Source: an uncultured Gammaproteobacteria bacterium
GTDB lineage: Bacteria; Patescibacteriota; Microgenomatia; UBA10105; UBA927
Direction of reading: 5' to 3'
Length of the DNA: 64,000 bases
NCBI GenBank assembly: GCA_964527425.1
Contig: CAZGOA010000002.1
Span: 73,346-137,345, forward strand
The stretch's first letter is position 1. Each line of letters starts with the position of its first letter. The notes below the pieces were generated by a model, which saw only the letters and a list, made by a program, of their open reading frames with translations, was not told where the DNA came from and ran no database searches. This document shows positions 154 through 44,749 of the stretch, one piece after another. Made by a program: the position numbers and the translations under genes.

Positions 154-849
154 TCATAGTCTTACCAATTTAGCTTTCACATGCAAACGTTGCCAGTAAG
201 TTCCTGGCGGGACACATGTAACTAAAGTAATATACGCATTATCAATTGGTTGATCTAGCATACTTATATCTTCAGGACCCTTCACTTCTAAATTTTCAAC
301 ACGATACCGATACGTTACCTGATCATAATTGAGAAAAATATCATTACCAACTTCAATCGTAGGTAGTGTAGAAAAAATCGTTTTATAATTCTTTGGATTA
401 AAAAATTGAGGCAGTACAGAATGTCCAAAAATTGCTGCATTCCCTATTTCACCAGGCAAAGCTGTTCCACCATAATGAATGAGTGCTTGATTGAGATCAT
501 TACCACCAATCACTACTTCCGCATTTATAATTCCCAATTGAGGAATAGATAATTTGTATATTCTTATTTTAGTATTTACTTTTTCCTGTGGCTTTAAAGG
601 AAGCCAAATATTAGGATCTGTACTAGTATTACTCGTTAATTGCGTATTGTTATCTTCTTTACTATTCCCAAATCCTATTGGAGAAACAACAGTCGTTAGT
701 AATGGAGCTGCAACTACATGAAATGAGACAATTGGCCAAGACACCCAGCCCAATATGCTCATACCTAAACTCATAATTATTAAAGAAATAAGAATAGACC
801 TCCTCATAGGTGGCCTAGGTCGTTTCTTTACATAACGATAAAGAGGCAT
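154..849 (-). CDS. Sortase family transpeptidase
   Basis: 231 aa with an N-terminal TM anchor and a TLVTC catalytic-cysteine motif near the C-terminus, plus a sortase-like beta-barrel core (LVTCVPPGTY...R). Confidence 0.7.
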   Translation of the reverse strand: MPLYRYVKKRPRPPMRRSILISLIIMSLGMSILGWVSWPIVSFHVVAAPLLTTVVSPIGFGNSKEDNNTQLTSNTSTDPNIWLPLKPQEKVNTKIRIYKLSIPQLGIINAEVVIGGNDLNQALIHYGGTALPGEIGNAAIFGHSVLPQFFNPKNYKTIFSTLPTIEVGNDIFLNYDQVTYRYRVENLEVKGPEDISMLDQPIDNAYITLVTCVPPGTYWQRLHVKAKLVRL

Positions 850-852
850 GTA

Positions 853-3117
853 TTATTGAGCTTCAATAGATACAGATAAATTCTGCTGTCTTGAAGGCAG
901 TTTATTAGGAAATAAAGAAAGTGAAGTTTTAATAGATACACCGCCAACACCATTAATATTCTTAATAATAGATTCAGCTTCTGAAATAGATTTTCCTGCT
1001 ATTTGAGAAGTTAAATCCTTTACCTCAAAAGAAGGAATTAACTTTGCTGAGCCTGTAATGGAAATAGAAATTTCACCATTTTTTTCTACTATTGGTTCAT
1101 TCGTGTTAACCTGAATTGAATCTTGGGATAATCTATATCCTTCGGGTATTTCTGCAGACAATGCTTGATTCATAACTGCTTTAATGTCGTCTTCTTTGTA
1201 GGCTGTTCCCTTAATTAAAATAGTTGCCTTCACAGTTAATTCTTTCGCTTCTTGACCAATTTCGTGCGAAAAAGAACGTTCACTTACTTCTGATGTAATG
1301 GTATCTGATATTAACTGTTCTCCTTCACTTACACCGAATCCATTCTTTGCCTGTTCAACTAATTCTGCAGTTAATTGTTTTACCGCGTTATCTTGATCAG
1401 CCCTGCTTACAACAGTAATATCTTTACTCGTTCCCCCCGTAAATGCTTGATCGTTTCTTGCTGTAGCGATACTTGTCGCAATACCGCTAATACTAAACTC
1501 TCGTCCTGAACTAATATTACCCTGTGTACCAATCTCTTTTGCTGTAACAGTACCATTTGCTTTTCCATACGTAATTGTTCCTGCAGCTAAACTCTCACTA
1601 GCAGACGCTATAGAGATATCGTCATCGAGGAGAAAATCAACTGAACCTGCTGAAACAACAGTACCTTTTTTTATTGTCCGAGGAACCTGAGATTTATTAA
1701 AAATAGTGATAGTACCCTTAGCAGGATCTCCAATAGTTTTTTTACCGGTAACTGTAACTACCTTCTCTCCATTTATTGATTCTTCTTTTTCTAGTCCACT
1801 TACTACATCGCCACTTGTTGTTCCATTTGGTTCAATAACAAACGTTTTTTCAGCTTCAACAGTACGTGGAATAACAGTAATTGCTATTGTTGCTTTAGGA
1901 AGAACAATTGAAAAAAGTATAAATCCAACTATAACTAATAGAAGTGGTACCACCACTAACGAAACCATTTTTATCTTCTTCGATTTATTACCATTCACAC
2001 CATTTCTTTTTGTTAAAACGCCTTGTACTACGTGTTTCATTGAATGTATAAGAGGTGAAAATAGTTGAGTTATTTTGTTTTTAGACGGTTTTTTAGCAGA
2101 TTCAACTATATCCTCTTCATCTACTGGACTAAACCCAATATCCTCAGGAGTTACTGGTTCTATATTGTCATATTCTTCCTCAGGTATTGATACTTGTTCT
2201 GTTTTCAATATTTCTTCAGGAGTTTCTTGTTTAGATGAAATCACTTCATTCTGATCTACTACATCATCAGTCGCAGAATCCAAAGGAAGATTCATATCTT
2301 CTTCAACTGGAGTAGATACCGCTGAATCTTCCATGCTTTCTTCTACTTGTGTCTCGTCATTATCCACATCCATGCTTTCAATTAATTCACTTGCACCTGC
2401 ATGTGACACTGCAGCAGCAGCGCCATCCCCTGGCAAAATTTCTGCTTTTGGAAAATGAAGAAAATTCGCTTTTTGCTGCCAATGATACTGTAAAATATCT
2501 CTTTTAGCATCTTCTAGTGTATGTCTATCCGTGCCATATACTAGTATTCTTGCTGGTAGTATTTCGACATCAGTAAACGTACTTAATGCATCTTCTAAAT
2601 GACCAATCAAATTACCTTCCTTGGCAAAAACTCTTTGACCAATAAAATTGCCAACCTTGTAAAGAGTTACTGTTATCCCCTTACTTGTTATCCCCATAAG
2701 TATCATGCTAGGTGGAACACCTTCTTGTTTTTTATACTGGTGAATGATCGCCTGATAAATAGAAACAAATCCTATCGGGGTCAATTCAAGTAATTTTGTT
2801 AGTTCTTTAATGTGAGGTTTAATTTCTTTCTTAACGTCTCCATCTTCAGTTAGGTATTCGGAAGGAAAACCTAATATTACTTTATTTATATTTTCAGACT
2901 TAGTTAAATCTTCAAGCGTTGATACACATTTATCAACAGCTTCTATCCGTTCCTCCCAAGAATCACTCATCAACTCTTGTGTTACTGCTCCTTCAATAAT
3001 GGCTTCTCCTTGCTTTCCTAAAGCCCAACAGGCTGCGTCAATAGCATCAGGATATATTAAAAGTGTAAGAAAAAGCTCTTGTTGTTTATTCCTTCCACTG
3101 AATGACGGCAGTTTCAT
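853..3117 (-). CDS. Large bitopic membrane protein. It has an N-terminal cytoplasmic domain (possibly actin/ASKHA-like), an acidic D/E-rich linker, a single TM helix and a ~400 aa extracytoplasmic domain. Function unknown.
   Basis: 754 aa ORF. There is a hydrophobic helix (VSLVVVPLLLVIVGFILFSIVLP) at about residue 370, preceded by a D/E-rich low-complexity segment. I could not recognise a catalytic motif. Confidence 0.45.
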   Translation of the reverse strand: MKLPSFSGRNKQQELFLTLLIYPDAIDAACWALGKQGEAIIEGAVTQELMSDSWEERIEAVDKCVSTLEDLTKSENINKVILGFPSEYLTEDGDVKKEIKPHIKELTKLLELTPIGFVSIYQAIIHQYKKQEGVPPSMILMGITSKGITVTLYKVGNFIGQRVFAKEGNLIGHLEDALSTFTDVEILPARILVYGTDRHTLEDAKRDILQYHWQQKANFLHFPKAEILPGDGAAAAVSHAGASELIESMDVDNDETQVEESMEDSAVSTPVEEDMNLPLDSATDDVVDQNEVISSKQETPEEILKTEQVSIPEEEYDNIEPVTPEDIGFSPVDEEDIVESAKKPSKNKITQLFSPLIHSMKHVVQGVLTKRNGVNGNKSKKIKMVSLVVVPLLLVIVGFILFSIVLPKATIAITVIPRTVEAEKTFVIEPNGTTSGDVVSGLEKEESINGEKVVTVTGKKTIGDPAKGTITIFNKSQVPRTIKKGTVVSAGSVDFLLDDDISIASASESLAAGTITYGKANGTVTAKEIGTQGNISSGREFSISGIATSIATARNDQAFTGGTSKDITVVSRADQDNAVKQLTAELVEQAKNGFGVSEGEQLISDTITSEVSERSFSHEIGQEAKELTVKATILIKGTAYKEDDIKAVMNQALSAEIPEGYRLSQDSIQVNTNEPIVEKNGEISISITGSAKLIPSFEVKDLTSQIAGKSISEAESIIKNINGVGGVSIKTSLSLFPNKLPSRQQNLSVSIEAQ

Positions 3118-28042: not shown

Positions 28043-29098
28043 ATGTCCAGAAAATTTCTATTCATAATAATAACGTTATTTTTGCTAATAGCTATTCCTA
28101 TTACATTTTTTGTTATGCGTCAGCAACAAGAAATTAGGAAACAAGCTGCTCCATTAACACAGTTATCCATGAGTCCCGCTCAAATCTCCAAAAATGTGGG
28201 TGATGAATTCCAGGTTCAAATTATGATCGATACGGGAACAAACCCAGTTATTCTCACCGACATGTATATTACGTATGATCCTACCAAATTACAATTTCTA
28301 AGTGCTGTAAATTCTGCAAACTTTCCGAATGAACAAACAACAATCTCAAATCCTAATGGTGCTTTTCACTACCAATTAACCACATTAAGTTTACAAACCC
28401 CATTTACAGGTACCGGACCCGTAGCAACACTACGATTTCAAGCACTTGCACCAACAACCTCACCTATAGATATTGCATTTACTGAACAAACGGGTATTTT
28501 CGGAATTCAAGAACAAAAAGTTAATTTACTCATTGGTGCTAATCCAGCAAAAGTGACAATAGGTGGAGGTGGTTCAACAATCGCACCTACACCTTCAACA
28601 ATTCCAACAACACTTACACCAACACAGCCTTCAAGTCCTTCTGGCTTACTTAATTTAACGGTAACTTCACCTGTTAACAATTCTGTAACATCCGACTCCA
28701 CACCAACTATCGTTGGGAAAGCTAATTCTGGGAGTATTATCACTATAGTATCTTCACCCACAGGATTTAATGGAAGTATAACTGCTGATACTACAGGAAA
28801 CTGGTCATTTACCCCAACACAAGCCATAAAAAACGGTACATATACTCTCACGGTTACCGCTACAAATCCCGTTTCCGGTCAAACACAATCTACAACATCA
28901 ATTATAACAATAGGTTCATCCACAATAACGCCAACTACCACACCAACTATTATTACTTCAGATACTGACACAATTGAAGAAGACACTTCTACTTCAGAAA
29001 TACCGGTAACCGGAACAATAGAAACCACATTACTCATAGCTCTAATTGGTTTAATTATGCTTCTGGGAGGAGCTGCATTGCCATTTTTTATCCGCTGA
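28043..29098 (+). CDS. Cell-surface protein. It has a signal anchor, a cohesin-like beta domain, a Thr/Pro linker, a bacterial Ig-like domain, and a C-terminal EIPVTG motif followed by a hydrophobic helix and FFIR tail (sortase-type sorting signal).
   Basis: The N-terminus has a TM/signal helix. The Ig-like segment reads SPVNNSVTSDSTPTIVGKANSGSIITIV…TGNWSFTPTQAIKNGTYTLTVTATN. The C-terminus reads SEIPVTGTIETTLLIALIGLIMLLGGAALPFFIR. Confidence 0.5.
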   Translation: MSRKFLFIIITLFLLIAIPITFFVMRQQQEIRKQAAPLTQLSMSPAQISKNVGDEFQVQIMIDTGTNPVILTDMYITYDPTKLQFLSAVNSANFPNEQTTISNPNGAFHYQLTTLSLQTPFTGTGPVATLRFQALAPTTSPIDIAFTEQTGIFGIQEQKVNLLIGANPAKVTIGGGGSTIAPTPSTIPTTLTPTQPSSPSGLLNLTVTSPVNNSVTSDSTPTIVGKANSGSIITIVSSPTGFNGSITADTTGNWSFTPTQAIKNGTYTLTVTATNPVSGQTQSTTSIITIGSSTITPTTTPTIITSDTDTIEEDTSTSEIPVTGTIETTLLIALIGLIMLLGGAALPFFIR

Positions 29099-29100
29099 TT

Positions 29101-30517: not shown

Positions 30518-32209
30518 TTATAGTTGTTTTTGTTCTTGATCTGGTAATAACGGATACGTCCAGGGAATATACTTAGAACGAATTTTATCAATTCTTTTGA
30601 GCAGTCTCAAAAAAGCATCTACCTGTCCTACTCCAAAAACCCAGGCTATAAAAAGATATACCCCTAATCCTATCAATCCAACTGTCACAGTTAGAAAAAA
30701 CAGATTTATTGTTCTAGTCGTATCAAACACTAATTGATCCAACAGTCTTAATAAACCAAATAACAATAACCCCATAATTCCAGCAGCAGAAACTATCTTC
30801 AACGGCGTAAAGAAAATCTCTCTAAATGAAAACCATCCAATTTTCCTTTGCAATATCATGAGTAGTAAACCAGCCTGAAATATACTTGCGATAGAAGTTG
30901 ATAATCCTAATGACCAAACAGGAAAGTGAAAAATAGAAATAAACAAAATGCTAAAAAAAGCGTTGACAAGTATACTTGCAATACCAACATACACTGGTGT
31001 TTTTGTATCATAGAGCGCATAAAACCCTCTTGCTAATAAATGAATCAGACCCTGTGCAAATAAAGAGATACTAAAAAATGAAAGAGTTTTCCCGGTTAAT
31101 ACTGTTGATTCCCAATCAAATTGATCTGATCCAAAGACTAGTCGAGTAATTGGAATACGTAATACTATAAAAAAGACTGAAACAGGTACAATAAAAAATA
31201 AAATTTGATGAATACCTGAAATAATCTGATCTTTAAAAGATGTTGTTTCTTCTTTCGCTGTGGATCGTGATAACGAAGGTAAAGCTGCTTGAGCAATTGT
31301 TGCTCCAAATAATCCAATTGGTAAATTCTGTAAATGTTGTGCAAACTGAAACACCGTAACCATTTTACTGCCTAATAAACTTGCTAACATTAAATCTACA
31401 GTTGTATCAATTTGACCTACTCCTACCCCAATCGTACGAGGCAACATCAATCTTCCAACCTCTTTAACTCCCTCAGTTTTTGTATCCAAAGACCATGTGT
31501 GTCTGTAATGAAGCAAAAGCACAGGAATAATTTGAATGGCAAAAAATAAAACAGCACCAATTATTACACCATAAACAGGAGCAAATAGTCCTACAAATGT
31601 TGAGAGTGTAAAAATTCCAATAATAATTCCAACGTTATATAAAATAGGTGCCAATGCAGGTATAAAGAAAATTTGATACGACTGCAACATACCAGTTAAA
31701 AAATTACCTATCATCAATGGAAATACTTGAAAAACCAACATATAACGAGTGTAGAGAGTCATTTCTGTTATCTGTTCATTCGTAAATCCTGGAGCAAGAA
31801 ACTGAGAAATTTGATGAGCAAATATCCATAATGGCACCATAACAATGGCTAGCAAAAGCAAACCATAATTCATTACAACAGATGCCATTTTCCATGCATC
31901 TTCTTCACTTTTTTTAGTTAATAATTTAGTAAAAACAGGAATAAACGCAGTCGTTAATGCACCCATCACTAACAATTCAAATAACATATTTGGCAATCGA
32001 AACGCAGCAAAATAAATACCTAATTCTTCTGTTGAAAAATATCCTGCTAACATCCTATCTCTGATAAGTCCTAATATCCTCGACATACCTACGGCTACCA
32101 TTAAAATAAAAGCAGCTGATCCCACAGACGACTGTTTAGCAACAATGAAAGATTTAAATGCTCCCATGAAGATTATTATAGTCATCCATTCCTTGACCAT
32201 AAAGGGCAA
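30518..32209 (-). CDS. murJ: Lipid II flippase MurJ (MviN)
   Basis: Polytopic MOP-family protein with MurJ N-terminal motifs (…AAFILMVAVGMSRILGLIRDRMLAGYFS…). The track start is a TTG; the true start may be the ATG three codons downstream. Confidence 0.8.
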   Translation of the reverse strand: MPFMVKEWMTIIIFMGAFKSFIVAKQSSVGSAAFILMVAVGMSRILGLIRDRMLAGYFSTEELGIYFAAFRLPNMLFELLVMGALTTAFIPVFTKLLTKKSEEDAWKMASVVMNYGLLLLAIVMVPLWIFAHQISQFLAPGFTNEQITEMTLYTRYMLVFQVFPLMIGNFLTGMLQSYQIFFIPALAPILYNVGIIIGIFTLSTFVGLFAPVYGVIIGAVLFFAIQIIPVLLLHYRHTWSLDTKTEGVKEVGRLMLPRTIGVGVGQIDTTVDLMLASLLGSKMVTVFQFAQHLQNLPIGLFGATIAQAALPSLSRSTAKEETTSFKDQIISGIHQILFFIVPVSVFFIVLRIPITRLVFGSDQFDWESTVLTGKTLSFFSISLFAQGLIHLLARGFYALYDTKTPVYVGIASILVNAFFSILFISIFHFPVWSLGLSTSIASIFQAGLLLMILQRKIGWFSFREIFFTPLKIVSAAGIMGLLLFGLLRLLDQLVFDTTRTINLFFLTVTVGLIGLGVYLFIAWVFGVGQVDAFLRLLKRIDKIRSKYIPWTYPLLPDQEQKQL

Positions 32210-32579: not shown

Positions 32580-33116
32580 ATGGCTGCCCAACCAGTTTCA
32601 GTTAATTTACTAGACCAACCAGAATTTGAAGGGTCTTCTGTGACGAGACTTTTCAACTGGGCTGTTACCTATGGTCGATATATTATGATTGGAACGGAAG
32701 TTATTGTGTTGTTGGCTTTTATTTCACGATTCAGTCTCGATAGAAAACTCACAGATCTAAGAGAAGAAATTGCCCAAAAACAAATAATCCTTGAAGCAAA
32801 TAAAAATTTTGAGGAAGAAATTAAACAACTGCAAACAAACATACTCACAGTAAATAGCCTTATTGAAACCCAGCGAATACCTCTTGATATTTTTAACCAG
32901 GTAATTTCCATTTTACCTCCCGACATAATCTTACTTTCGTATAAACAGGAGGATATAAATATTGAACTTAAATTATTAGCCGGTACGACAAATAGTTTTT
33001 CCATTTTCTTAAATAGTATTCAAAGAATACCGTCACTTTCAGGAATAGAAATAACAGAAATAAGAAAAGATGCACTAAGAGGTACAGAATTTAGAATTAT
33101 TGCAAAAATACAATAA
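32580..33116 (+). CDS. PilN-like type IV pilus assembly protein (bitopic)
   Basis: Short cytoplasmic N-terminus with a VNLLDQPEF segment (compare the PilN INLLP motif), a single TM, and a coiled-coil plus periplasmic domain. Confidence 0.35.
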   Translation: MAAQPVSVNLLDQPEFEGSSVTRLFNWAVTYGRYIMIGTEVIVLLAFISRFSLDRKLTDLREEIAQKQIILEANKNFEEEIKQLQTNILTVNSLIETQRIPLDIFNQVISILPPDIILLSYKQEDINIELKLLAGTTNSFSIFLNSIQRIPSLSGIEITEIRKDALRGTEFRIIAKIQ

Positions 33117-33780: not shown

Positions 33781-33995
33781 ATGTAGAAGAAAGTGACCGA
33801 GATTTATTACTCGTTTCAATTTTTACATTTTTAACTGTTTTATCGTGGGTGTTCTTTGAGCTGGTAAAGACTATAAAAACAACTACAGTAAAGGCTCCAG
33901 TTCAGGAAATCATTAAACCGTTGAACCCGACTATAGATACTGCAATACTTGATACATTAAGAGAAAGAAAATCATATTTTCCAGTCAATGAATAA
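33777..33995 (+). CDS. Small membrane protein in the surface operon
   Basis: 72 aa with one TM (LLVSIFTFLTVLSWVFF). It is translationally coupled on both sides. Confidence 0.3.
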   Translation: MNVEESDRDLLLVSIFTFLTVLSWVFFELVKTIKTTTVKAPVQEIIKPLNPTIDTAILDTLRERKSYFPVNE

Positions 33996-35286
33996 ACCAA
34001 TAAGAATCCCTACTATTTTCGCACTCCTCTTCGTAGGAGTTCTTCTCTTAACAATGACATGGATTACTAAAATAATTTCACAGCCAACACAAGCAGACGT
34101 AGGTAAACTTCCTAAAGATATTCAAGTAACAAATGTGTCAGACACATCGTTCACAGTACTCTGGATTACAGAAAAACCAACACGTGGAGTAATCCAAGTA
34201 ACTCCTCCAGATGGTCAAGCATTAACGTTTTATGATGATCATGCAGTGCAATCCCAAAATCAAGAATTTACGACTCATAGCGTAACTGTACGGGGCATGC
34301 AAGCACTCACACAATACACCATCACGTTTCTAAATACTCCAGACAAAACACTTACTATAACGACAGGACCAACGCTTTCACTTAATTCAAATCAATTAGG
34401 TCCTCTCCATGGCTCAGTAAAAAATTCAGATGGAACACCTGCAGTAGGCTCTTTAGTCTATCTTGCTTTAGAAGGAAGCCAAATACTTTCAACGACAGTA
34501 AAGGATTCAGGAAGTTTTCTCATCCCTCTTAATTTATTACGAACAGAAGATACTACCGCATATCTACCTGTTAAAGAAGAACCACTACCTGTTACTCTCA
34601 CGATTATATCTCCAACAGGAGAAAAAACCATAGCAACAACAAATACAGATAACGACTCTCCAGTTCCCGATATAACTTTAGGCCAACCAAACGACTTTAC
34701 ACAATCATCTGTAAAACCAACTCCTGTACTTGCTGAAAAACAATCATCGTTTCAATCCGTACTCGGTACAATAAATACAACAGCAGTAGCTTCTTCTAGT
34801 GTAACTCTGGCAACACCGATTCAAGGAGGAATAGTACGGAGTGAATATCCGTTTATTACTGGCAAAGGTATTCCAGATGAAATAGTAACAATTATTATAG
34901 GAAGCAAAAGTCCTACTGTTGATACTGTACGAGTTAAAAAAGATGGAACCTGGCAATTTACACCAAAAAAAGGCATACCAGCAGGAAACCAAAGTGTTAC
35001 TATCTCTTCGTTTGATGAAAATAAAAATCCAATTTCTATAACGCACCTGTTTCAAATTATGAAAAGTGGTACTCAAGTACTCGGTGATGCAACTCCGTCC
35101 GCAAGTCCAACAATAATTCTTCCAACCCCAATAAGCACAATTAGCGCAACACCAATCCCCACCTTGCTAATAGAACCTACTCCTACAACCGAAATTCCCA
35201 CAACAGCAACGACAGTACCTACCTATATCTTATTAGCAGCAGGAATATCATTAAGTATTATCGGATTACTTGTTTTTATACTGTAA
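33988..35286 (+). CDS. Surface protein. It has an N-terminal signal anchor, an FN3-like domain, a bacterial Ig-like domain and a C-terminal TM anchor.
   Basis: FN3-like segment: VTNVSDTSFTVLWITEKPTRGVIQV…YTITF. Ig-like segment: IVTIIIGSKSPTVDTVRVKKDGTWQFTPKK. C-terminus: …TEIPTTATTVPTYILLAAGISLSIIGLLVFIL. Confidence 0.5.
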   Translation: MNKPIRIPTIFALLFVGVLLLTMTWITKIISQPTQADVGKLPKDIQVTNVSDTSFTVLWITEKPTRGVIQVTPPDGQALTFYDDHAVQSQNQEFTTHSVTVRGMQALTQYTITFLNTPDKTLTITTGPTLSLNSNQLGPLHGSVKNSDGTPAVGSLVYLALEGSQILSTTVKDSGSFLIPLNLLRTEDTTAYLPVKEEPLPVTLTIISPTGEKTIATTNTDNDSPVPDITLGQPNDFTQSSVKPTPVLAEKQSSFQSVLGTINTTAVASSSVTLATPIQGGIVRSEYPFITGKGIPDEIVTIIIGSKSPTVDTVRVKKDGTWQFTPKKGIPAGNQSVTISSFDENKNPISITHLFQIMKSGTQVLGDATPSASPTIILPTPISTISATPIPTLLIEPTPTTEIPTTATTVPTYILLAAGISLSIIGLLVFIL

Positions 35287-35377: not shown

Positions 35378-36850
35378 ATGGATTTATACGATCAAGCACA
35401 AAAAAATAATGAACCACAATCATCAGATCTGCCTGATCTCTCCTCACTCATGTCACCACCACAAGATAGTCAACCAGTTCAAACCCAACCTCCTCCACCA
35501 CAAATTGAACCTATTTCTGCATTGGATGTTCCCGTAACCCCGCCAATTTCTGATCAACCGACAGTAGATACACCACCAGTACAATCCGCAACGCCTGACA
35601 TTTCGCCTTTACCAACATCTGTTCCACCTATTGCTAATCCAGAAACACCCATGCCCACTCCACAAGAAGTAAAACCCACAGATCTTGCTTCAGAAGCTGT
35701 AATATCGAATTCACCTGATGCCAATACTTTACCTACACCAGATTCCTCCAAGCCAGATACTGTGGCAAACACACCAGATACCCAAACATTTATGCACATG
35801 AGTGATATACCCCGTGACACAGTTCCCTCTTCTCCTGTAACCGAAACAGTCCCATCTCCAGCACCACTGGATAATTCACCACCTAATACTACCCCTCCAG
35901 TACCACCAAATGCAGCGACACCATCCAAAAAGTTCACAATGGGAAGAGGAATTCTCTTTGCAGTACTTGCTCTAGCGATACTTACCCTTCCTGTCATTGG
36001 ATTTTTTGTAACACGACCCAATTCTCAAACAGATACGCGTACCCAAGCTGCAATAAGCAATTGTGCGATCCCTGGCGATCCAGATTGTGATATAACATCA
36101 CCAACTAACACTCCTCCAAGTAGCACATCTAATTCTGCCACAACCCCCGCTACGCAAACACAAACGGTACAATCGCAAGCCGGCTGTAGTTCTTTAGGGA
36201 ATCCATGTGAAAACAACGGCTGCTGTACTGGACTAGTCTGTCAGGGAAATACCGGCAATCGTGTATGTCAACAGCCAGCAACAACTCCTGATCAATGGTG
36301 TGGGGGAACACCCGGTTCTTGTGGCAGACTAATAGCTTTCCATTGCAATAGTGATTTCCCAAGTGGAACACCCGAATCAGGTTGTTTTGATAATCCAATT
36401 TATATCCAAAATAATGATGCAGCAGGCTGGGCTCAGGCACGTGCACATGTTGCCGGCTGTGGTCAAATAGACGTCGTTTGTAAAAGTGGCCCTAAAGAAA
36501 ACCAATTATGTGGAGATTTCGAAATTTTCAAAGATAATTGTGGTCCTGGCTCACAACCGACACCTATTCCAATATCTCAATGTAGAAATTTAAAAATTTA
36601 TCGTGATGGTATAGTTGTAAAAACTAAAGATTACAATACTCTTCGACCACAACAACAAATTCAGTTCGCAGTTGTATCAAACCAAGAGGCAGCACGAGCT
36701 CGATTTTACATTAACGGTAAAGATCCAGTCATATCGACAGAAAAAAATGAAAATGGTGAATTTTTTATTAACTGGGAAATACCAGAAGTAGGTAGTCAGA
36801 GGACATTTACAGTACAAGCAGAAGTTCGAATAAATGGAGTTTGGCAATAA
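35378..36850 (+). CDS. Bitopic surface protein of an unrecognised family, paralogous to 37885-38391 at both the N- and C-terminal modules
   Basis: N-terminal DLPDLSSLMSPPQD motif and a Pro-rich cytoplasmic region. A TM at about residue 195. Cys-rich extracytoplasmic region (GCSSLGNPCENNGCCTGLVCQGN…). C-terminal beta domain ending …RINGVWQ. Confidence 0.5.
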   Translation: MDLYDQAQKNNEPQSSDLPDLSSLMSPPQDSQPVQTQPPPPQIEPISALDVPVTPPISDQPTVDTPPVQSATPDISPLPTSVPPIANPETPMPTPQEVKPTDLASEAVISNSPDANTLPTPDSSKPDTVANTPDTQTFMHMSDIPRDTVPSSPVTETVPSPAPLDNSPPNTTPPVPPNAATPSKKFTMGRGILFAVLALAILTLPVIGFFVTRPNSQTDTRTQAAISNCAIPGDPDCDITSPTNTPPSSTSNSATTPATQTQTVQSQAGCSSLGNPCENNGCCTGLVCQGNTGNRVCQQPATTPDQWCGGTPGSCGRLIAFHCNSDFPSGTPESGCFDNPIYIQNNDAAGWAQARAHVAGCGQIDVVCKSGPKENQLCGDFEIFKDNCGPGSQPTPIPISQCRNLKIYRDGIVVKTKDYNTLRPQQQIQFAVVSNQEAARARFYINGKDPVISTEKNENGEFFINWEIPEVGSQRTFTVQAEVRINGVWQ

Positions 36851-37880
36851 TATGAAAAACATTTCAAAATTCGCTGTGACTCTTGGCTTATTAATTACTT
36901 CTCTATTAATTGCAACGACGGCAGTATTAGTAATTCAATTAAGAAACCGTCAGGCAATAACAGATTTACCACCTGAGGCCGCAGTTGATGCGTGTAAAAT
37001 AGTATTTACGATTGATCCGGTGTGCAAAACTGACTTTACCCTCCTTCCTCCTGAGTCACCAGAAAATACACCAACACCTTCCGTTTTACCAACCGTAACA
37101 ATTTCACCACAATGCACAAGTGCGTGTGATCCTGCAGGAAGAAACCAGCAGTGTCCAACAAATCACAGCTGCGCACCAGCAAACCATCCTAATGCTAATA
37201 CCTGCATATTAACTGCATGTGTACAAAATCCTGATCTTTGTAACAGCACAAGCTGCTCACTATTACCAACACCGCCTTCAACTAATACACCCACCCCACA
37301 AGCTACTAACACTCCAACAGTACGTGCAACAAATACACCGATAAATACACCGACAAATACACAAATTCCTCCAACAAACACTATTGCATCCACTAGTACA
37401 CCAAATCCAACCGCAACACCAAATCCTTTATGCGGATCATCATGCGATCCTGATGGGTCAAGCAATCAATGTCCATCGAATCATACCTGTGCACCAGATA
37501 GTCATCCAAATGCCAATACCTGTATTCTCACTTCGTGTGTACAAAATCCAAGCCTATGCTCAAATAACAGCTGCACAGTCCTCCCAACACCAACAGCTGT
37601 ACGTACGTCAACACCGACTCAACCAATTGCATACTCACCGTCATCTACGCCCATACCAGGCTCATGTAATGCTAACTGTTCGACAGATAGTAATTGTGCA
37701 AACAACTTAGTATGCTCAGGTGGTACGTGCCGCAACCCAGAATGCACTGAGCAAGCTAATTGTTCATGCTCGATACAGCCAACGCCAGAAATTCCTGTAA
37801 CAGGCACAGGAACTACTCTAGTAGGTATTGGTATAATTGTTGGAGGAATACTACTCTTACTGTTAGGATTAGCATTTTAA
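36834..37880 (+). CDS. Cysteine-rich repeat surface protein with a C-terminal EIPVTG sorting signal
   Basis: N-terminal signal anchor. Two ~55 aa 8-Cys repeats (CxxxCDPxGxxxQCPxNHxCAPxxHPNANTCILTxCVQNPxLC) and a third degenerate Cys-rich module. The C-terminus reads PEIPVTGTGTTLVGIGIIVGGILLLLLGLAF. Confidence 0.5.
   Translation: MEFGNNMKNISKFAVTLGLLITSLLIATTAVLVIQLRNRQAITDLPPEAAVDACKIVFTIDPVCKTDFTLLPPESPENTPTPSVLPTVTISPQCTSACDPAGRNQQCPTNHSCAPANHPNANTCILTACVQNPDLCNSTSCSLLPTPPSTNTPTPQATNTPTVRATNTPINTPTNTQIPPTNTIASTSTPNPTATPNPLCGSSCDPDGSSNQCPSNHTCAPDSHPNANTCILTSCVQNPSLCSNNSCTVLPTPTAVRTSTPTQPIAYSPSSTPIPGSCNANCSTDSNCANNLVCSGGTCRNPECTEQANCSCSIQPTPEIPVTGTGTTLVGIGIIVGGILLLLLGLAF
37114..37598 (+). 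repeat. Intragenic duplicated ~165-nt module encoding the 8-Cys domain, two copies at about 37114-37278 and 37431-37598
   Basis: The two nucleotide segments are roughly 75% identical. Compare tgcacaagtgcgtgtgatcctgcaggaag… with tgcggatcatcatgcgatcctgatgggtc…, and …aatacctgcatattaactgcatgtgtacaaaatcc… with …aatacctgtattctcacttcgtgtgtacaaaatcc…. Confidence 0.7.
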
Positions 37881-38474: not shown

Positions 38475-39395
38475 ATGATTTCTTTTGTTTATAAACGAGC
38501 CCATGATACTGTTCCCCAAACCAGAGATGAATTTACTTATGGTGCATGGGTACATGTAGAATCTCCAACAAATGAAGACCTTATATATTTAAGTGATACC
38601 TTTAACTTAGAAAAAAGCTTGTTAACCGATGCATTAGATATCAACGAAGTTCCTCGTATTGAACAAGAAGAAGGTGCCATTTACCTGTTTACCCGCTTTG
38701 TGGTATCTCAAAAAGATAGAGTATTCACAACTCCTGTATTAATTATCTATAGAAAGAAAGTCATTATAACTATTGCTCCCAAAACTGTCCCTCAGGTTAA
38801 TGCCATCATGTCTCAAAAAGGAAACTGGAGTACCTATGACACAGAAGGGTTTGTGCTATTACTCCTCTCTACCTTAAACACTACAGTTGAGCGTTCATTA
38901 AATACCATCTCACGACTCATACAACAATCTAAAATAAAAGCAGAACGAATAGGTACAAAAGAACTATTATTTTTAGTAGATATGGAAAACAGTTTATATG
39001 ACATTAATGGACTTCTAGTACGTTTAGAAAATTTAGTGTCTACTCTCCTGTCTAAGTCATGGTTAAAACGTACAGAAGAACAAGAAGAAATATTAAAAGA
39101 TATTTACTTAGCAATTCAGCAAATGCTAGATATCGTTAAAGAAAATATCAGAACGGTCGTAAATACCCGCGATGCAGTATCAACAATAATGACTGCTAAT
39201 CTTAACCGCGTCATCAAACTCTTTACCTCACTGACGGTCTTGTTAACTGTCCCAATGCTTGTAGCTACATTTTATGGAATGAATGTCACGTTACCGTTGT
39301 CTCAATCTCCTACCGCATTTGTAACGATCATAATGGGTACAATAATCGTATCTTTAGGACTACTTATTTTATTTGTTAAAAATGATTGGTTGTAG
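38475..39395 (+). CDS. corA: CorA-family magnesium/cobalt transporter
   Basis: Cytoplasmic N-domain and two C-terminal TM helices with the YGMN signature (LVATFYGMNVTLP). Confidence 0.7.
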   Translation: MISFVYKRAHDTVPQTRDEFTYGAWVHVESPTNEDLIYLSDTFNLEKSLLTDALDINEVPRIEQEEGAIYLFTRFVVSQKDRVFTTPVLIIYRKKVIITIAPKTVPQVNAIMSQKGNWSTYDTEGFVLLLLSTLNTTVERSLNTISRLIQQSKIKAERIGTKELLFLVDMENSLYDINGLLVRLENLVSTLLSKSWLKRTEEQEEILKDIYLAIQQMLDIVKENIRTVVNTRDAVSTIMTANLNRVIKLFTSLTVLLTVPMLVATFYGMNVTLPLSQSPTAFVTIIMGTIIVSLGLLILFVKNDWL

Positions 39396-40431
39396 CAGAA
39401 AAAGAAGCTTCTATATATGCACGTAACGCTTCTGAAGAATTAATTGGTATCAAGACATATTTCCCCTCATAAAGTCTTTCTTCAGGATGAATAAGTTGTG
39501 ATTCAAGAGATACTTTCTGAAACGATAACACATTACGATTCTGCAGAAATAATCTAATAAACTGTAATATGTCATCCGTTTGCACGTCGGTTATTATGCG
39601 ATTAAGCAGAATGTAATAAAGTTTAGAAACTCGCTCAGCAGAATACCAATCTATCGGATTTTTTAATTTTGATAACACAGCTTCTATCAATTCTTCTTGT
39701 CTTCTTGCACGCGCAAAATCTGTACCCTCATCGCCACTTGCATGCCTGCTTCGAACATATTGTAAAGCTCTTTCTCCATCCATTATTTGATTGCCTGATT
39801 CAAAATTGATTGTTTGATACCGACATCTAAATAATGGATCTCCATTGCATGTATCATTCTCTTTTCCTGCGATTGGAAACTGATTATCAATAAATGGTGT
39901 AGTTACATTTACAGACACACCACCCAATACATTAATAGCCTCTTGAAATGCTTCAAAATCGATAAGAAGAGTGTAATGAACAGGTATACCTGTAATTTCT
40001 TTAATAATCTCTTTGGTAAATCCAATGCCCCCACCTGTGCGTCCTTGAACATTGCCATAATAATATGCAGTATTTATGCGATCTCTTAACGTATCAGACC
40101 AAAGATCCCTGGGAATCGGTAAGATGATTGATCGCTGTGCTCTATTGGTCGATAACGAAATTATTTGAATAGTATCAGTTAAATCAGATCCTTCATGTTG
40201 TTTGCCGCCAATACCTAATAACAATATATTTATTCTTCCATTATGCTGTTGTATCGAATCAGATTTAAGATGAAGGTAGAGATCCAGTATACTTAAACCT
40301 ACAGATTGTAATAGTAGTACTGAGGCAATACTAAATAATAATAGACCAACGACTACACTCATAATACCACTTAAGAAAAGCAGTTTACCTATGCGTCGTT
40401 GTTTAAAAGGCTTCTTGGGATTCATGATCAT
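39376..40431 (-). CDS. LytR-CpsA-Psr (LCP) family cell-wall glycopolymer ligase
   Basis: N-terminal TM and an LCP domain (…INILLLGIGGKQHEGSDLTDTIQIISLS…RDLW…). Confidence 0.75.
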   Translation of the reverse strand: MIMNPKKPFKQRRIGKLLFLSGIMSVVVGLLLFSIASVLLLQSVGLSILDLYLHLKSDSIQQHNGRINILLLGIGGKQHEGSDLTDTIQIISLSTNRAQRSIILPIPRDLWSDTLRDRINTAYYYGNVQGRTGGGIGFTKEIIKEITGIPVHYTLLIDFEAFQEAINVLGGVSVNVTTPFIDNQFPIAGKENDTCNGDPLFRCRYQTINFESGNQIMDGERALQYVRSRHASGDEGTDFARARRQEELIEAVLSKLKNPIDWYSAERVSKLYYILLNRIITDVQTDDILQFIRLFLQNRNVLSFQKVSLESQLIHPEERLYEGKYVLIPINSSEALRAYIEASFSATTNHF

Positions 40432-42624: not shown

Positions 42625-43599
42625 ATGCGTAAATCTTCACTTTCAAATAATTTGACAGAAAACTGGAATTCATTAGTAAATCACCCACTTCAATCATATG
42701 AATGGGGTCTATTTCGTGAGAAAACTGGTGTTAAAGTCGTTCGATTTGATGAAACACCACACCCTTATCAATTAACAATACATAAACTTCCCTATCTTCC
42801 TTATAGGATTGGATATCTACCAAAAGGACCACCAATTACTCAAACAATGATAAATACCTTATACAACTATGGGAAAGCACATAACATTATTTTCTTTCAA
42901 TTAGAACCTGATGTTGTAGAAAAATTATCAGACCATACCCCTCAATTTCCGTTTATAAAACCTTCGCATCATCCATTATTTACGAAACATACGTTTATGA
43001 TAGATTTATCAAAAACAGAAGATCAGTTACTTGCTTCTATGCACCCCAAGACTCGATATAACCTAAAAGTCGCTCAAAAACATAAAGTCGTTATAAAAAA
43101 TGATAATTCAAAAGAAGCCTTTACAGAATATCTACGGCTTGTTGAAGAAACAACAAAACGTCAAGGATTTTATGCCCATTCACTTTCCTATCACAAAAAA
43201 ATGTGGGAAACATTATCGCCATCTATCGCTCGGCTTTGGACTGCTTCCTATCAGGGAACTATTGTGGCCGCCTGGATAATATTTTTATGGAAAGAAACTA
43301 TGTATTATCCTTATGGCACCTCTTCTCGAGAATTTCGTAATATTATGGCACCAAATTTATTACTCTGGGAAATTATAAAATGGGGTAAAAAACATAAGTA
43401 CAACTATTTTGATTTATGGGGTGCACTGGGACCGAATCCTGACCAAAACGATCCGTTTTATGGATTTCATCGATTTAAAGCAGGATTTAGTCCAGAATTA
43501 GTTACCTTTATTGGCTCTTTTGATTTAGTTGTAAACCCTTTACTCTATAAACTTTATTGCATCGCAGACACCATCAGATGGAAATTATTAAAGAAATAA
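42625..43599 (+). CDS. FemAB-family aminoacyl-tRNA-dependent peptidoglycan peptide-bridge transferase (FemX-like)
   Basis: 324 aa with FemAB-fold motifs (…KTRYNLKVAQKHKV…, …YYPYGTSSREFRN…, …FYGFHRFKAGF…). Confidence 0.7.
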   Translation: MRKSSLSNNLTENWNSLVNHPLQSYEWGLFREKTGVKVVRFDETPHPYQLTIHKLPYLPYRIGYLPKGPPITQTMINTLYNYGKAHNIIFFQLEPDVVEKLSDHTPQFPFIKPSHHPLFTKHTFMIDLSKTEDQLLASMHPKTRYNLKVAQKHKVVIKNDNSKEAFTEYLRLVEETTKRQGFYAHSLSYHKKMWETLSPSIARLWTASYQGTIVAAWIIFLWKETMYYPYGTSSREFRNIMAPNLLLWEIIKWGKKHKYNYFDLWGALGPNPDQNDPFYGFHRFKAGFSPELVTFIGSFDLVVNPLLYKLYCIADTIRWKLLKK

Positions 43600-43602
43600 T
43601 AA

Positions 43603-43872
43603 GCGAAAAGGTTGGAAGCAAACCATTCCGGGATAGGTGAATATCCGATCGCGGAATGTGGAGAACCAATCACACTAAGTTTTAGCCAAATTAACAACAA
43701 ATATTTAATTAAATTCTTGAGTGTGAGCATTGAAAAAAGAATGAGTAGTTTTCGAGAGAACAATTTAGGGGGGATTCCCCACGAATTGTGGGAGGGGGGG
43801 CGGACAGTCCCCCGAATTGTGAACGAAGAAAACCATTCTTTTTTCACCAGCTCACGAGCTTTTGGTCCTTTT
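43603..43872 (+). other. Intergenic region that looks like a candidate structured RNA of unknown class. It is G-tract-rich and higher in GC than its surroundings, and ends in a small hairpin plus T-tract.
   Basis: A ~300 nt non-coding gap between the two FemAB genes contains a GGGGGG run at 43768-73 and a GGGGGGG run at 43794-800. A repeated CCCC(A)CGAATTGTG(G/A)A unit occurs twice. An AGCTCacgGAGCT hairpin (43849-60) is followed by TTTTGGTCCTTTT. Confidence 0.2.
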
Positions 43873-43888
43873 GGCGATTCAAAAAGAC

Positions 43889-44749
43889 ATGAATAAATGT
43901 ATGGAACTCCAACAATCTCCACTTTATGCAGCATATGTAAAAAAGCTAGGATGGACAATCGAACGGATTGATTCTACAAATATTTTTCTCAAGAAAATTC
44001 CTTTTATAGGAACATTTGCAAAAATACAAAGAATAGAACAACTGCCTGGAGTAGAATCAGTATTAACGTTATTCAGAAAATATCATATTAAGCGAACAGT
44101 CCTAGAAGCAGGACCAAATGTAAATGAACAAGAATTTAAACACTGGTGCAATGAAATTAGTAAGCATGTTACCGTTATTTCTTCCCCTTATATTCCAACA
44201 AAAACCTTACTTGTTGATTTAACTCTTTCTGAAGAAAAAATATTCCAACAATTTTCTGAAGCAAAACGACGAGCAGTAAGAAGAGCCAAAAAAAATAATG
44301 TTATTGTTACGGAGTCACAAAACATTCAAGAACTTATTACCATAAAAAACCGTTCTGCTGGTTTGTTTGGATTTATTACCACACATGGAGTTAAACAATT
44401 ATGGGAAGTATTTTCACCTGAAAAAGCAACTTGTGTATTAGCATACACACAAGATAAAAAACTCATAGGAGGAGTTTTACTTATTTTCTGGGAAGATATA
44501 GCCTATTACTGGATTGCTGGTTCAATCAAACAAGGCAAAAAACTTTTTGCACCAACCCTTCTTGCATACGAGGCCATGAAAATAGCAAAAAAAAGAAATG
44601 CCAAGCAATTTGATTTTGTTGGTGTTTGGGATGAACGCTTTCCCAAAGAAAATAAAGAATGGTTAGGTTTTACTAAATTTAAAGAAGGTTTCGGAGGAAA
44701 AACTCTTTATTATCCAACACATAAACACAGAAATATTAACGCAGCATAG
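43889..44749 (+). CDS. FemAB-family peptidyltransferase, second tandem paralogue
   Basis: FemAB motifs (…KRRAVRRAKKNNV…, …YYWIAGSIKQGKK…, …LGFTKFKEGFGG…). The track start is an alternative TTG codon; ATG at 43889 or 43901 is more likely. Confidence 0.65.
   Translation: MNKCMELQQSPLYAAYVKKLGWTIERIDSTNIFLKKIPFIGTFAKIQRIEQLPGVESVLTLFRKYHIKRTVLEAGPNVNEQEFKHWCNEISKHVTVISSPYIPTKTLLVDLTLSEEKIFQQFSEAKRRAVRRAKKNNVIVTESQNIQELITIKNRSAGLFGFITTHGVKQLWEVFSPEKATCVLAYTQDKKLIGGVLLIFWEDIAYYWIAGSIKQGKKLFAPTLLAYEAMKIAKKRNAKQFDFVGVWDERFPKENKEWLGFTKFKEGFGGKTLYYPTHKHRNINAA

What the first reader, a model, noticed from the sequence alone, without database searches (positions are those of the whole stretch)
28043..29098. 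C-terminal EIPVTG plus hydrophobic helix sorting signals on two surface proteins, matched by a sortase at the contig start
The protein at 28043-29098 ends …SEIPVTGTIETTLLIALIGLIMLLGGAALPFFIR. The protein at 36834-37880 ends …PEIPVTGTGTTLVGIGIIVGGILLLLLGLAF. Each has a motif, a hydrophobic stretch and a short tail, which is the tripartite layout of sortase substrates. IPxTG is a documented LPXTG variant, for example IPNTG in Bacillus cereus BcpB. A TLVTC sortase is encoded at 154-849. The protein at 33988 ends with a related EIPTT…TM sequence. This suggests covalent cell-wall anchoring in an organism that also has FemAB and LCP genes.
Basis: partly seen in the sequence, partly recalled or inferred. 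Interest (0 to 1): 0.55.

Follow-up and report, generated by a model that had tools for sequence, protein, structure and literature searches.

The report
Sortase sorting signals in a CPR bacterium
Three unrelated surface proteins of an uncultivated ultra-small (CPR, Microgenomates) bacterium end in an LPXTG-like tag (IPVTG or IPTTA plus a membrane helix) that most likely marks them for its single membrane sortase, a known mechanism with lineage-specific quirks rather than a new one.

Summary
Proteins 28043-29098 and 36834-37880 share only T-x-EIPVTGT, 32 and 29 residues from the C-terminus, followed by a hydrophobic helix. Protein 33988-35286 has EIPTTA at 30 residues. The bodies are unrelated, and the shared codons differ at synonymous sites.

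Orthologues from other Microgenomates keep x-P-x-[ST]-[GA] plus a helix while the flanks diverge. Some carry canonical LPVTG or LPTTG and pass the curated LPXTG-anchor models; the window tails fall just below or do not hit.

In 11 genomes the fourth motif residue is T in both the cohesin and 33988 families, or non-T in both. That fits one shared recognition enzyme.

Gene 154-849 (minus strand) is a bona fide sortase: Pfam 77 bits, H143/C212/R221 invariant, N-terminal anchor. It reaches no class A-F cut-off and is about equidistant from classes C, D, A and E by fold. LCP, two FemAB genes, MurJ and a PBP are present.

Corrections: the window start is not a contig start, and two of the three tails lack any basic residue.

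Best reading: Sec export, retention, sortase cleavage after T, attachment to peptidoglycan (about 0.7). It is a lineage variant of a known system and of moderate interest.

The parts
154..849 (-). Sortase, 231 aa. It has a cytoplasmic N-terminus (MPLYRYVKK...), an N-terminal TM helix (about residues 16-52) and a catalytic domain (residues 97-229) with H143, C212 (TLVTC) and R221.
853..3117 (-). A 754-aa bitopic membrane protein ('p754'). It has a cytoplasmic N-domain, an acidic linker, a TM segment and an extracellular region with a Baseplate_J-like segment. It is the conserved upstream neighbour of the sortase and a possible partner; its function is not established.
   Evidence: It lies within 300 bp upstream of the sortase in 78 of 82 Microgenomates loci. 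This includes distant loci where the alaS, glycosyltransferase-3 and YceG synteny is lost. Baseplate_J matches 21 of 35 orthologues. The PDB profile hit is 8v3w_E at E = 2.4e-4.
28043..29098 (+). Predicted sortase substrate 1. It has an N-terminal signal/anchor, a cohesin-like domain, a Big_13 Ig-like domain and a T/S/P-rich stalk. The sorting signal is at 28997-29095: EIPVTG, a polar spacer, a 22-residue hydrophobic helix and a terminal R.
   Evidence: Orthologue tails read IPVTG, VPVTG, LPVTG, VPVSG, LPTSG, LAPTG, LPTTG and LPPTG. The window tail scores 14.2 bits against TIGR01167 (cut-off 15.9) and 16.5 against PF00746 (cut-off 20).
33988..35286 (+). Predicted sortase substrate 3. It has an N-terminal signal/anchor and fn3-like, CarboxypepD_reg-like and Big_13 domains. 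The sorting signal is at 35191-35283: EIPTTA, then TTVPT, then a hydrophobic helix, with no basic tail. The gene lies directly after PilN-like, PilO-like and a 72-aa TM gene.
   Evidence: In 86 orthologues the consensus is [IVPLM]-P-x-[ST]-[GA]-x-x-[LF]-P-T plus a helix. P is invariant in 82 of 82. The fourth residue is S in 55 and T in 27. The fifth residue is G in 64 and A in 18. The motif is 30 aa from the C-terminus in 57.
36834..37880 (+). Predicted sortase substrate 2. It has an N-terminal signal/anchor and Cys-rich repeats separated by T/P-rich linkers. The sorting signal is at 37788-37877: EIPVTG, then TGTT, then a hydrophobic helix that ends the protein (...LLGLAF).
   Evidence: Orthologues end EVPVTG (L211), KVPVTG (L218), QVPVSG (L212) and KIPVAG (L219), each followed by ...LLGL[AV]F. 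There is no Pfam or NCBIfam hit, the tail included.
39376..40431 (-). LCP (LytR-CpsA-Psr) family protein. This is cell-envelope context.
   Evidence: PF03816 scores 97.5 bits. It is syntenic in related genomes.
42625..44749 (+). Two adjacent FemAB-family genes (42625-43599 and 43862-44749). They are candidates for building the peptidoglycan cross-bridge that would serve as the sortase nucleophile.
   Evidence: PF02388 scores 110.4 and 49.5 bits. The pair is conserved in all related loci examined.
30518..32209 (-). MurJ lipid II flippase. This is peptidoglycan context.
   Evidence: PF03023 scores 268.6 bits.

Best explanation
The three proteins are substrates of the membrane-anchored sortase encoded at 154-849. 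Their tails are a Microgenomates version of the LPXTG cell-wall sorting signal: [ILVMP]-P-x-[TS]-[GA], a short polar spacer, a helix of about 20 hydrophobic residues, and zero to two basic residues.

Proposed mechanism:
1. Each precursor is exported by Sec through its N-terminal hydrophobic signal.
2. The C-terminal helix holds it in the membrane with the motif at the outer face.
3. The sortase (Cys212 thiolate, His143, Arg221) cleaves after the Thr of IPVT|G or IPTT|A and forms a thioacyl intermediate.
4. An amine resolves the intermediate. The most likely amine is the FemAB-built cross-bridge of lipid II, so the protein ends up covalently bound to peptidoglycan. There it displays cohesin-like, Ig-like, fn3-like or Cys-rich domains on a T/S/P-rich stalk.

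Shown from sequence: the motif, helix and N-terminal signal; an intact sortase; peptidoglycan, FemAB and LCP genes; conservation of the motif; and its within-genome covariation.

Inferred: cleavage, the cleavage site, the nucleophile and the final attachment.
For: 1. The same T-x-EIPVTGT appears in two unrelated proteins at the same distance from the C-terminus, with synonymous codon differences. The chance of a shared 7-mer is 0.0065.

2. All three protein families conserve the motif across Microgenomates while the flanking linkers diverge.
   - The cohesin/Big_13 family shows IPVTG, VPVTG, LPVTG, VPVSG, LPTSG, LAPTG, LPTTG and LPPTG.
   - In the 33988 family the P is invariant in 82 of 82, position 4 is S or T in 82 of 82, and position 5 is G or A in 82 of 82.
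   - The Cys-rich family shows [IV]PV[TSA]G.

3. Orthologous tails with LPVTG or LPTTG pass the curated cut-offs of TIGR01167 (16.6 and 18.2 against 15.9) and PF00746 (20.1 and 20.8 against 20). The window's 28043 tail falls just below.

4. Position 4 is concordant within genomes between the cohesin and 33988 families. It is T/T in six genomes, S/S in four and A/S in one, with no T/S mixtures. A naive Fisher test gives p of about 0.002, computed by hand and not corrected for phylogeny. This fits one shared recognition enzyme.

6. Sortase is near ubiquitous in Microgenomates (PMC6744442).

7. MurJ, LCP, two FemAB genes, a PBP and BacA are present.

8. P.[ST][GA] lies just upstream of 11 of 87 C-terminal helices but only 8 of 648 internal helices. 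This sample is biased, because it includes loci chosen for orthologues.
Against: - There is no biochemical evidence.
- Two of the three window tails have no basic residue after the helix, a feature normally counted as part of the signal. Among 33988 orthologues, 35 of 86 also lack K/R in the last six residues.
- The window tails do not reach the curated thresholds of the LPXTG-anchor models, and the 36834 tail gives no hit at all.
- Many orthologues have Ser instead of the near-universal Thr at the scissile position.
- The sortase is 27-36 kb from the substrates, and its neighbourhoods in 80 genomes hold almost no candidate substrates. The linkage is therefore by co-occurrence only.
- A genome-wide count was not possible. 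Only about 84 kb of this genome was reachable.
Confidence: 0.72

Rival explanations
1. The tails are plain C-terminal membrane anchors. The proteins stay in the membrane as bitopic proteins, and the conserved P-x-[TS]-[GA] is a juxtamembrane structural or interaction motif that no sortase cleaves.
For: Two of the three tails lack the cationic stop-transfer tail, and the 36834 tail hits no LPXTG model. Ser often replaces Thr. The 33988 family has a second invariant Pro ('LPT') at the start of the helix, which looks like a family-specific structural feature.
Against: Three unrelated families converge on the same pentapeptide pattern at the same spacing. Orthologues with canonical LPxTG pass the curated anchor models. 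The T/S state covaries between families within genomes, which a purely structural motif in unrelated proteins would not predict. A sortase with no other evident substrates is conserved throughout the clade.
Confidence: 0.12
2. The sortase is a pilus-type (class C-like) polymerase. The IPxTG proteins are pilins joined head to tail into a covalent fibre rather than simply anchored to the wall.
Against: - The class C model scores 48.5 bits against a cut-off of 160.
- The sortase has no C-terminal TM, because it ends at the last strand.
- It is not next to its substrates. Its neighbours are p754, a glycosyltransferase-family-3 gene, alaS and YceG.
- The three substrates have unrelated architectures and are conserved single genes.
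- No YPKN-type pilin motif was seen by inspection.
- Position 1 of the motif varies freely among I, V, L, M, P and Q in orthologues.
Confidence: 0.1
3. Another C-terminal sorting enzyme, such as an exosortase, archaeosortase, rhombosortase or rhomboid-type protease, recognises the tails rather than the sortase.
For: The architecture of motif, helix and short tail is shared by all those systems. Only about 84 kb of the genome was inspected, so such an enzyme cannot be excluded.
Against: The motif is not PEP, PGF, GlyGly or a similar tag. The only models that hit the tails are LPXTG-type sorting domains. No such enzyme is seen in the window or in its 20 kb of extensions.
Confidence: 0.04
4. The match is chance, or the remnant of a recent duplication of a tail-encoding DNA segment.
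For: The motif is short. T-rich and P-rich linkers are common in these proteins.
Against: A shared 7-mer arises by chance at p = 0.0065. Four of the seven shared codons differ synonymously. Orthologues in many genomes keep the motif.
Confidence: 0.01

Closest known systems
Housekeeping sortase with an LPXTG cell-wall sorting signal (the Staphylococcus aureus SrtA paradigm; TIGR01167, PF00746)
   Same: - N-terminal signal peptide.
- Pentapeptide with an invariant Pro and a small residue (G or A) after a hydroxyl residue, about 30 aa from the C-terminus.
- Hydrophobic helix after the motif.
- Type II membrane sortase with a His-Cys-Arg triad and TLxTC.
- The sortase gene is not clustered with its substrates.
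- Cross-bridge (FemAB) and lipid II genes are present.
   Different: - Position 1 is I, V, M, P or Q as often as L.
- The scissile residue is Ser in many lineages.
- The cationic tail is minimal or absent.
- The window tails fall below the curated HMM cut-offs.
- The sortase reaches no class A model, and no other class cut-off either.
Class C (pilus) sortases and IPxTG pilins, for example B. cereus SrtD with BcpB IPNTG, and S. pneumoniae SrtC with RrgB IPQTG
   Different: There is no C-terminal TM on the enzyme, no pilin-sortase operon and no pilin motif seen. The class C HMM scores far below its cut-off. Ile is not conserved in orthologous signals.
Class D sortases with LPxTA-type signals (LPNTA; NF058670/NF058671 LPxTATN)
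   Same: The 33988 protein has IPTTATT, that is Ala after Thr. The best sequence match in the PDB is C. perfringens class D sortase 4d70 (E = 1e-9). NF058671 gives 44 bits.
   Different: The cut-offs are 140-165 bits. Orthologues of 33988 mostly have G at this position (64 of 82), so Ala is a drift variant and not a separate specificity. The LPxTATN domain model scores only 7.5 bits on the tail.
Actinobacterial housekeeping sortase with its genetically linked membrane partner SafA (PMC9282373)
   Same: A membrane protein gene is persistently adjacent to the single housekeeping-type sortase gene across a whole clade.
   Different: SafA is a small TM protein. p754 is a 754-aa bitopic protein with large cytoplasmic and extracellular domains and shows no detectable homology to SafA. 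No interaction has been shown.

Membership tests
LPXTG-type cell-wall sorting signal (TIGR01167 / PF00746) | LPXTG-like pentapeptide about 30-40 residues from the C-terminus | tested here: met
   IPVTG lies at 32 and 29 residues and IPTTA at 30 residues from the C-terminus. Orthologues include canonical LPVTG, LPTTG and LPPTG.
LPXTG-type cell-wall sorting signal (TIGR01167 / PF00746) | Hydrophobic membrane-spanning segment directly after the motif | tested here: met
   The maximum 15-residue Kyte-Doolittle mean is 2.6-2.9 in all three tails.
LPXTG-type cell-wall sorting signal (TIGR01167 / PF00746) | Positively charged C-terminal tail | tested here: not met
   28043 ends in a single R. 36834 (...GLAF) and 33988 (...VFIL) have no basic residue. 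Among 33988 orthologues, 51 of 86 have K/R in the last six residues.
LPXTG-type cell-wall sorting signal (TIGR01167 / PF00746) | N-terminal secretion signal | tested here: met
   All three proteins start with a short basic stretch followed by a hydrophobic segment of about 20 residues. This was judged by inspection only; no dedicated signal-peptide predictor was available.
LPXTG-type cell-wall sorting signal (TIGR01167 / PF00746) | Score above the curated cut-off of the family models | tested here: not met
   The 28043 tail scores 14.2 against 15.9 (TIGR01167) and 16.5 against 20 (PF00746). The 33988 tail scores 12.4 against 20. The 36834 tail gives no hit. Orthologue tails P0126 and P0132 pass both models.
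LPXTG-type cell-wall sorting signal (TIGR01167 / PF00746) | Cleavage after Thr and amide linkage to the peptidoglycan cross-bridge | not testable with these tools
   This needs peptide assays or mass spectrometry.
Sortase (PF04203 / TIGR01076; cysteine transpeptidase) | Domain model above the curated cut-off | tested here: met
   PF04203 scores 77.1 against 26.6. TIGR01076 scores 49.4 against 39.35.
Sortase (PF04203 / TIGR01076; cysteine transpeptidase) | His-Cys-Arg catalytic triad with a TLxTC signature | tested here: met
   H143, C212 (TLVTC) and R221 are invariant in 33 homologues.
Sortase (PF04203 / TIGR01076; cysteine transpeptidase) | Eight-stranded beta-barrel sortase fold | tested here: met
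Class C (pilus-assembly) sortase | Class model NF033745 above its cut-off | tested here: not met
   48.5 bits against 160.
Class C (pilus-assembly) sortase | Additional C-terminal membrane anchor | tested here: not met
   The protein ends at residue 231, immediately after the last beta strand (E221-229). There is no C-terminal hydrophobic segment.
Class C (pilus-assembly) sortase | Gene clustered with pilin substrate genes | tested here: not met
   The neighbours are p754, a glycosyltransferase-family-3 gene, alaS and YceG in about 80 genomes. Almost no sorting-signal proteins lie within +/-10 kb.
Class C (pilus-assembly) sortase | Lid (DP[WFY]) occluding the active site | tested here: inconclusive
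   The window enzyme has D78-P79-N-I-W82. In homologues only W82 and P84 are invariant and D-P is not. The region has pLDDT of about 50 in the model, and no contact information is available.
Class A, D, E, F sortases (NCBIfam class models) | Class model above its cut-off | tested here: not met
   Class E scores 49.8 against 160, class D 39.1 against 165, class F 18.2 against 166, and SrtD-LPxTATN 44.3 against 140. Class A gives no hit.
Exosortase / archaeosortase / rhombosortase sorting systems | PEP-CTERM, PGF-CTERM, GlyGly-CTERM or a similar motif, with the cognate multi-pass enzyme | tested here: not met
   No such motif is in the tails. Only LPXTG-type models hit them. No such enzyme is among the called genes of the window and its 20 kb of flanks. 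The rest of the genome was not seen.

The most novel reading that the evidence does not exclude
Microgenomates may use a distinct, still unclassified sortase clade. This reading has three parts.

1. The sortase works as an obligate pair with a large bitopic membrane protein (p754, adjacent in 78 of 82 genomes). The pairing would go through the sortase's near-invariant cytoplasmic M-x-LYRYVK tail or its W82/P84 segment.
2. Its specificity at the scissile position has drifted between Thr and Ser, and all substrates in a genome have followed. It also needs no cationic tail.
3. One conserved substrate (the 33988 family) is encoded inside a pilN-pilO-small-TM operon. It would be a wall-anchored part of the type IV pilus trans-envelope apparatus in these outer-membrane-less episymbionts.
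Probability: 0.2. Interest if true: 0.6.

Novelty: new variant of a known kind. Interest (0 to 1): 0.4.

Why it matters
CPR/Patescibacteria make up a large share of bacterial diversity, and they live by attaching to other cells. Their surface proteins are almost all annotated as 'hypothetical'.

Sortase was already known to be near ubiquitous in Microgenomates (PMC6744442). I found no paper in the searchable library that describes what it sorts.

This analysis offers a usable substrate rule: [ILVMP]-P-x-[TS]-[GA], a helix, and a tail of at most two basic residues, about 30 aa from the C-terminus. Standard LPXTG models narrowly miss it.

It also names three conserved, syntenic surface proteins as the core sorted set:
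- a cohesin/Ig protein paired with a GH39-like enzyme;
- an fn3/Ig protein in a pilN-pilO operon;
- a Cys-rich protein.

That would allow systematic prediction of the wall-anchored surfaceome of these organisms. It also points to candidates for host attachment. The mechanism itself is textbook, so the advance is in annotation and lineage biology, not in principle.

Tried and rejected
Almost all were chance matches in wrong frames or in unrelated proteins, for example a serA-like 'EIPVTGTLLLLNN'. Only one sequence (L120 = L174, GC 0.36) was a C-terminal signal. The heptapeptide is not specific outside the clade, so the test was uninformative.

2. **Profile search of 1.84 billion representatives with the tail-less cohesin/Big_13 body.** The top 150 hits were giant multi-repeat Big_13 proteins. 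The result was useless for collecting tails.

3. **Looking for substrates next to the sortase in 80 related genomes.** The neighbourhoods are housekeeping genes. Only L079 (MPVAG) and two L086 ORFs (LPEAG, IPNLG) looked signal-like. The substrates are dispersed.

4. **Structure of p754.** The single-sequence AF2 model gave pLDDT 39.5 and is unusable.

5. **An apparent p754-sortase fusion in L057.** It is an artefact of a run of N in the record.

7. **Cluster look-up for organism or protein names.** None was recorded.

8. **Sortase residues that track the T-type versus S-type signals.** I considered this and dropped it. The few matched genomes are phylogenetically structured, so any column would separate them.
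Full report
**What is there**

The window has 35% G+C. It comes from an uncultivated member of the Candidate Phyla Radiation (Patescibacteria), in the Microgenomates group near Gottesmanbacteria. The sortase's homologues carry those names, and 468 relatives were found in species-representative genomes of that group.

- 28043-29098 ends SEIPVTGT-IETT-LLIALIGLIMLLGGAALPFFIR.
- 36834-37880 ends PEIPVTGT-GTT-LVGIGIIVGGILLLLLGLAF.
- 33988-35286 ends TEIPTTATTVPT-YILLAAGISLSIIGLLVFIL.

The sortase gene lies at 154-849 on the minus strand. The window is a slice of a 126-164 kb contig, so the sortase is not at a contig start.

**Is it more than chance or duplication?**

- The two IPVTG proteins are otherwise unrelated. 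BLASTP aligns only T-x-EIPVTGT, 8 of 9 residues.
- One is a cohesin-like plus Big_13 Ig-like protein. The other is a Cys-rich repeat protein with no family hit.
- At the DNA level, four of the seven shared codons differ synonymously.
- In 2000 shuffles, a shared 7-mer between any two C-terminal 40-residue tails of window proteins arose 0.65% of the time.
- Among the called window genes, [LIVM]P.[TS]G occurs only at these two sites.

**Comparative evidence that the tails are sorting signals**

*Cohesin/Big_13 family.* Orthologues end in IPVTG, VPVTG, LPVTG, VPVSG, LPTSG, TPVSG, LAPTG, LPTTG or LPPTG, each followed by a helix.

*33988 family.* This family is large. In 86 sequences the consensus is [GAT][QE][PE]-[IVPLM]-P-x-[ST]-[GA]-x-x-[LF]-P-T plus a helix.
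- The Pro is invariant in 82 of 82.
- The fourth residue is S in 55 and T in 27.
- The fifth residue is G in 64 and A in 18.
- The motif lies exactly 30 residues from the end in 57.

The window's IPTTA is therefore the same signal with Gly replaced by Ala. It is not a degenerate remnant.

*Cys-rich family.* Orthologues end EVPVTG, KVPVTG, QVPVSG or KIPVAG, each followed by ...LLGL[AV]F.

*Scoring against the curated models.* I scored the tails alone.
- Orthologues with Leu at position 1 pass TIGR01167 (16.6 and 18.2 against 15.9) and PF00746 (20.1 and 20.8 against 20).
- The window's 28043 tail is just below (14.2 and 16.5).
- The 33988 tail is weak (12.4).
- The 36834 tail does not hit at all.

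The family is thus continuous with canonical LPXTG signals. Routine annotation would nevertheless miss the window proteins.

**A within-genome covariation**

The whole block is syntenic across Gottesmanbacteria-like genomes. Its order is: hrcA-grpE-dnaK-dnaJ; cohesin protein and GH39; MurJ; rpsT; pilN-like; pilO-like; a small TM gene; the 33988 family; further surface proteins; LCP; uvrD; two FemAB genes.

This synteny let me read two or three substrate tails from each of 11 genomes. The fourth motif residue in the cohesin and 33988 families was:
- T and T in six genomes (window, L211, L213, L214, L218 and the more distant L219);
- S and S in four genomes (L210, L212, L216, L217);
- A and S in one genome (L215);
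- never T with S.

The Cys-rich family follows the same state in four of five genomes (T, T, T and S) and has A in L219.

A naive Fisher test on T versus non-T gives p of about 0.002. I computed it by hand, and it is not corrected for phylogeny: the T state has at least two origins, but the events are few. Unrelated proteins changing the same motif position together is what one shared recognition enzyme predicts.

**The enzyme**

- The 231-aa protein scores 77 bits on PF04203 and passes TIGR01076.
- H143, C212 (TLVTC) and R221 are invariant in 33 homologues.
- The AF2 model (pLDDT 77) has a long N-terminal helix (residues 16-52) and a beta-barrel that ends at the C-terminus.
- No class model comes near its cut-off: class E 49.8 of 160, class C 48.5 of 160, class D 39.1 of 165, class F 18.2 of 166.
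- The best PDB sequence match is C. perfringens class D sortase 4d70.
- Foldseek ranks class C enzymes first.

I therefore call it an unclassified sortase with a housekeeping-type layout: an N-terminal anchor only, and a gene not clustered with its substrates.

**Envelope context**

LCP, two FemAB-family genes and MurJ are in the window. A class A PBP, BacA and a glycosyltransferase-4 gene lie just beyond it. A peptidoglycan wall with an added cross-bridge is therefore plausible.

**Mechanism**

The best-supported mechanism is the classical one.
1. Sec exports the precursor.
2. The C-terminal helix retains it in the membrane.
3. The sortase cleaves after Thr, forming a thioacyl intermediate.
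4. The intermediate is transferred to the lipid II cross-bridge amine and built into the wall.

Only the sequence features are shown. Cleavage, the cleavage site, the nucleophile and the attachment are inferred. I give this about 0.72.

The rivals, and my weight for each:
- uncleaved membrane anchors (0.12), favoured by the missing cationic tail;
- pilus polymerisation (0.10), favoured by the class C-like fold and by Ile at position 1, but contradicted by the layout, the context and the class scores;
- another sorting enzyme (0.04);
- chance or duplication (0.01).

**What differs from the textbook**

- Position 1 is loosely hydrophobic (I, V, L, M, P or Q).
- The scissile residue is Ser in many lineages.
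- Position 5 may be Ala.
- The basic tail is zero to two residues.
- The sortase belongs to no curated class.

**Literature**

Sortase is reported as near ubiquitous in Microgenomates (PMC6744442). It is noted in a complete Microgenomates genome (PMC7143001). IPNTG of BcpB and the IPXTG proteins of S. agalactiae are documented (PMC8225981). I found no paper in the library that describes sortase substrates or their motif in CPR bacteria.

**Beyond the finding**

The most persistent neighbour of the sortase is a 754-aa bitopic membrane protein (853-3117).
- It is adjacent in 78 of 82 loci, often with gaps of only 2-10 bp.
- It stays adjacent in distant Shapirobacteria-like and Roizmanbacteria-like loci where the rest of the synteny is gone.
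- Its extracellular part has a weak Baseplate_J-like segment.
- Its structure could not be modelled.
- An apparent fusion with the sortase in L057 is an artefact of N-masking.
- SafA of Actinobacteria is a precedent for a genetically linked membrane partner of a housekeeping sortase (PMC9282373). No homology to SafA is implied.

**Verdict**

It is a lineage-specific variant of a well-known system. Its value lies in annotating CPR surface proteins, and it is mechanistically unsurprising. Interest: 0.4.

Noticed in passing
window 853-3117 (-), with 154-849 (-): A 754-aa bitopic membrane protein lies immediately upstream of the sortase in 78 of 82 Microgenomates loci. It has a cytoplasmic domain, an acidic linker, a TM segment and a Baseplate_J-like extracellular region. 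It stays adjacent where the other synteny has decayed. The sortase itself has a near-invariant cytoplasmic M-x-LYRYVK start and an invariant W82/P84 after its TM. This may be a functional pair.
   Followed up: partly
window 32580-35286 (+): The genes run PilN-like (32580-33116), PilO-like (33100-33780), a conserved 72-aa single-TM ORF (33777-33995), then the 33988 sorting-signal protein. This block is conserved after rpsT in all related genomes examined. There is no PilM gene here. A predicted sortase substrate inside a pilN-pilO operon is unusual.
   Followed up: partly
window 35378-36850 (+) and 37885-38391 (+): Two proteins flank the Cys-rich substrate. They share a C-terminal domain of about 100 aa ending ...NG[VI]WQ (BLASTP E = 9e-15) and an N-terminal 'D[LF]PDLS.LM' motif followed by a Pro-rich region and a TM. 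Neither has a family hit or a sorting signal. Orthologues occupy the same position in related genomes.
   Followed up: partly
window 28043-30501 (+): The cohesin/Big_13 substrate is followed, 3 bp later, by a membrane-anchored GH39-like glycoside hydrolase (29101-30501). The pair is conserved in every related locus examined (L210-L219). It may be a surface glycan-processing module.
   Followed up: no
window 28043-28180; alignment A3: The N-terminus of the cohesin/Big_13 family is strongly conserved beyond a generic signal peptide: ...LLLIAIPIT.FVV.QQQEIRKKAAPAT.L, with Q29, A35, P37 and T39 invariant. The other two substrates also have a Q-x-A just after the N-terminal helix (RQA|IT and TQA|DV). 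This may be the signal-peptidase site, or a lineage-specific export motif.
   Followed up: no
loci L008, L012-L014, L016, L019, L020 and others: Many genome records titled 'uncultured Gammaproteobacteria bacterium' (TPA_asm, binchicken or SRP co-assemblies) carry Microgenomates-type sortase loci with the same synteny as Gottesmanbacteria. Those record titles look like placeholder or wrong taxonomy.
   Followed up: no
L057 9900-9990: A run of N in this genome record makes p754 and the sortase read as one 829-aa ORF. It is an artefact and not a gene fusion.
   Followed up: yes
L219 13118-13925 (+): In one related genome, two small Cys-rich secreted proteins follow the Cys-rich sorting-signal protein. 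Their C-termini read ...C.NQG....C.GG.......CC..G..C.P.G...C. They have no counterpart in the window.
   Followed up: no
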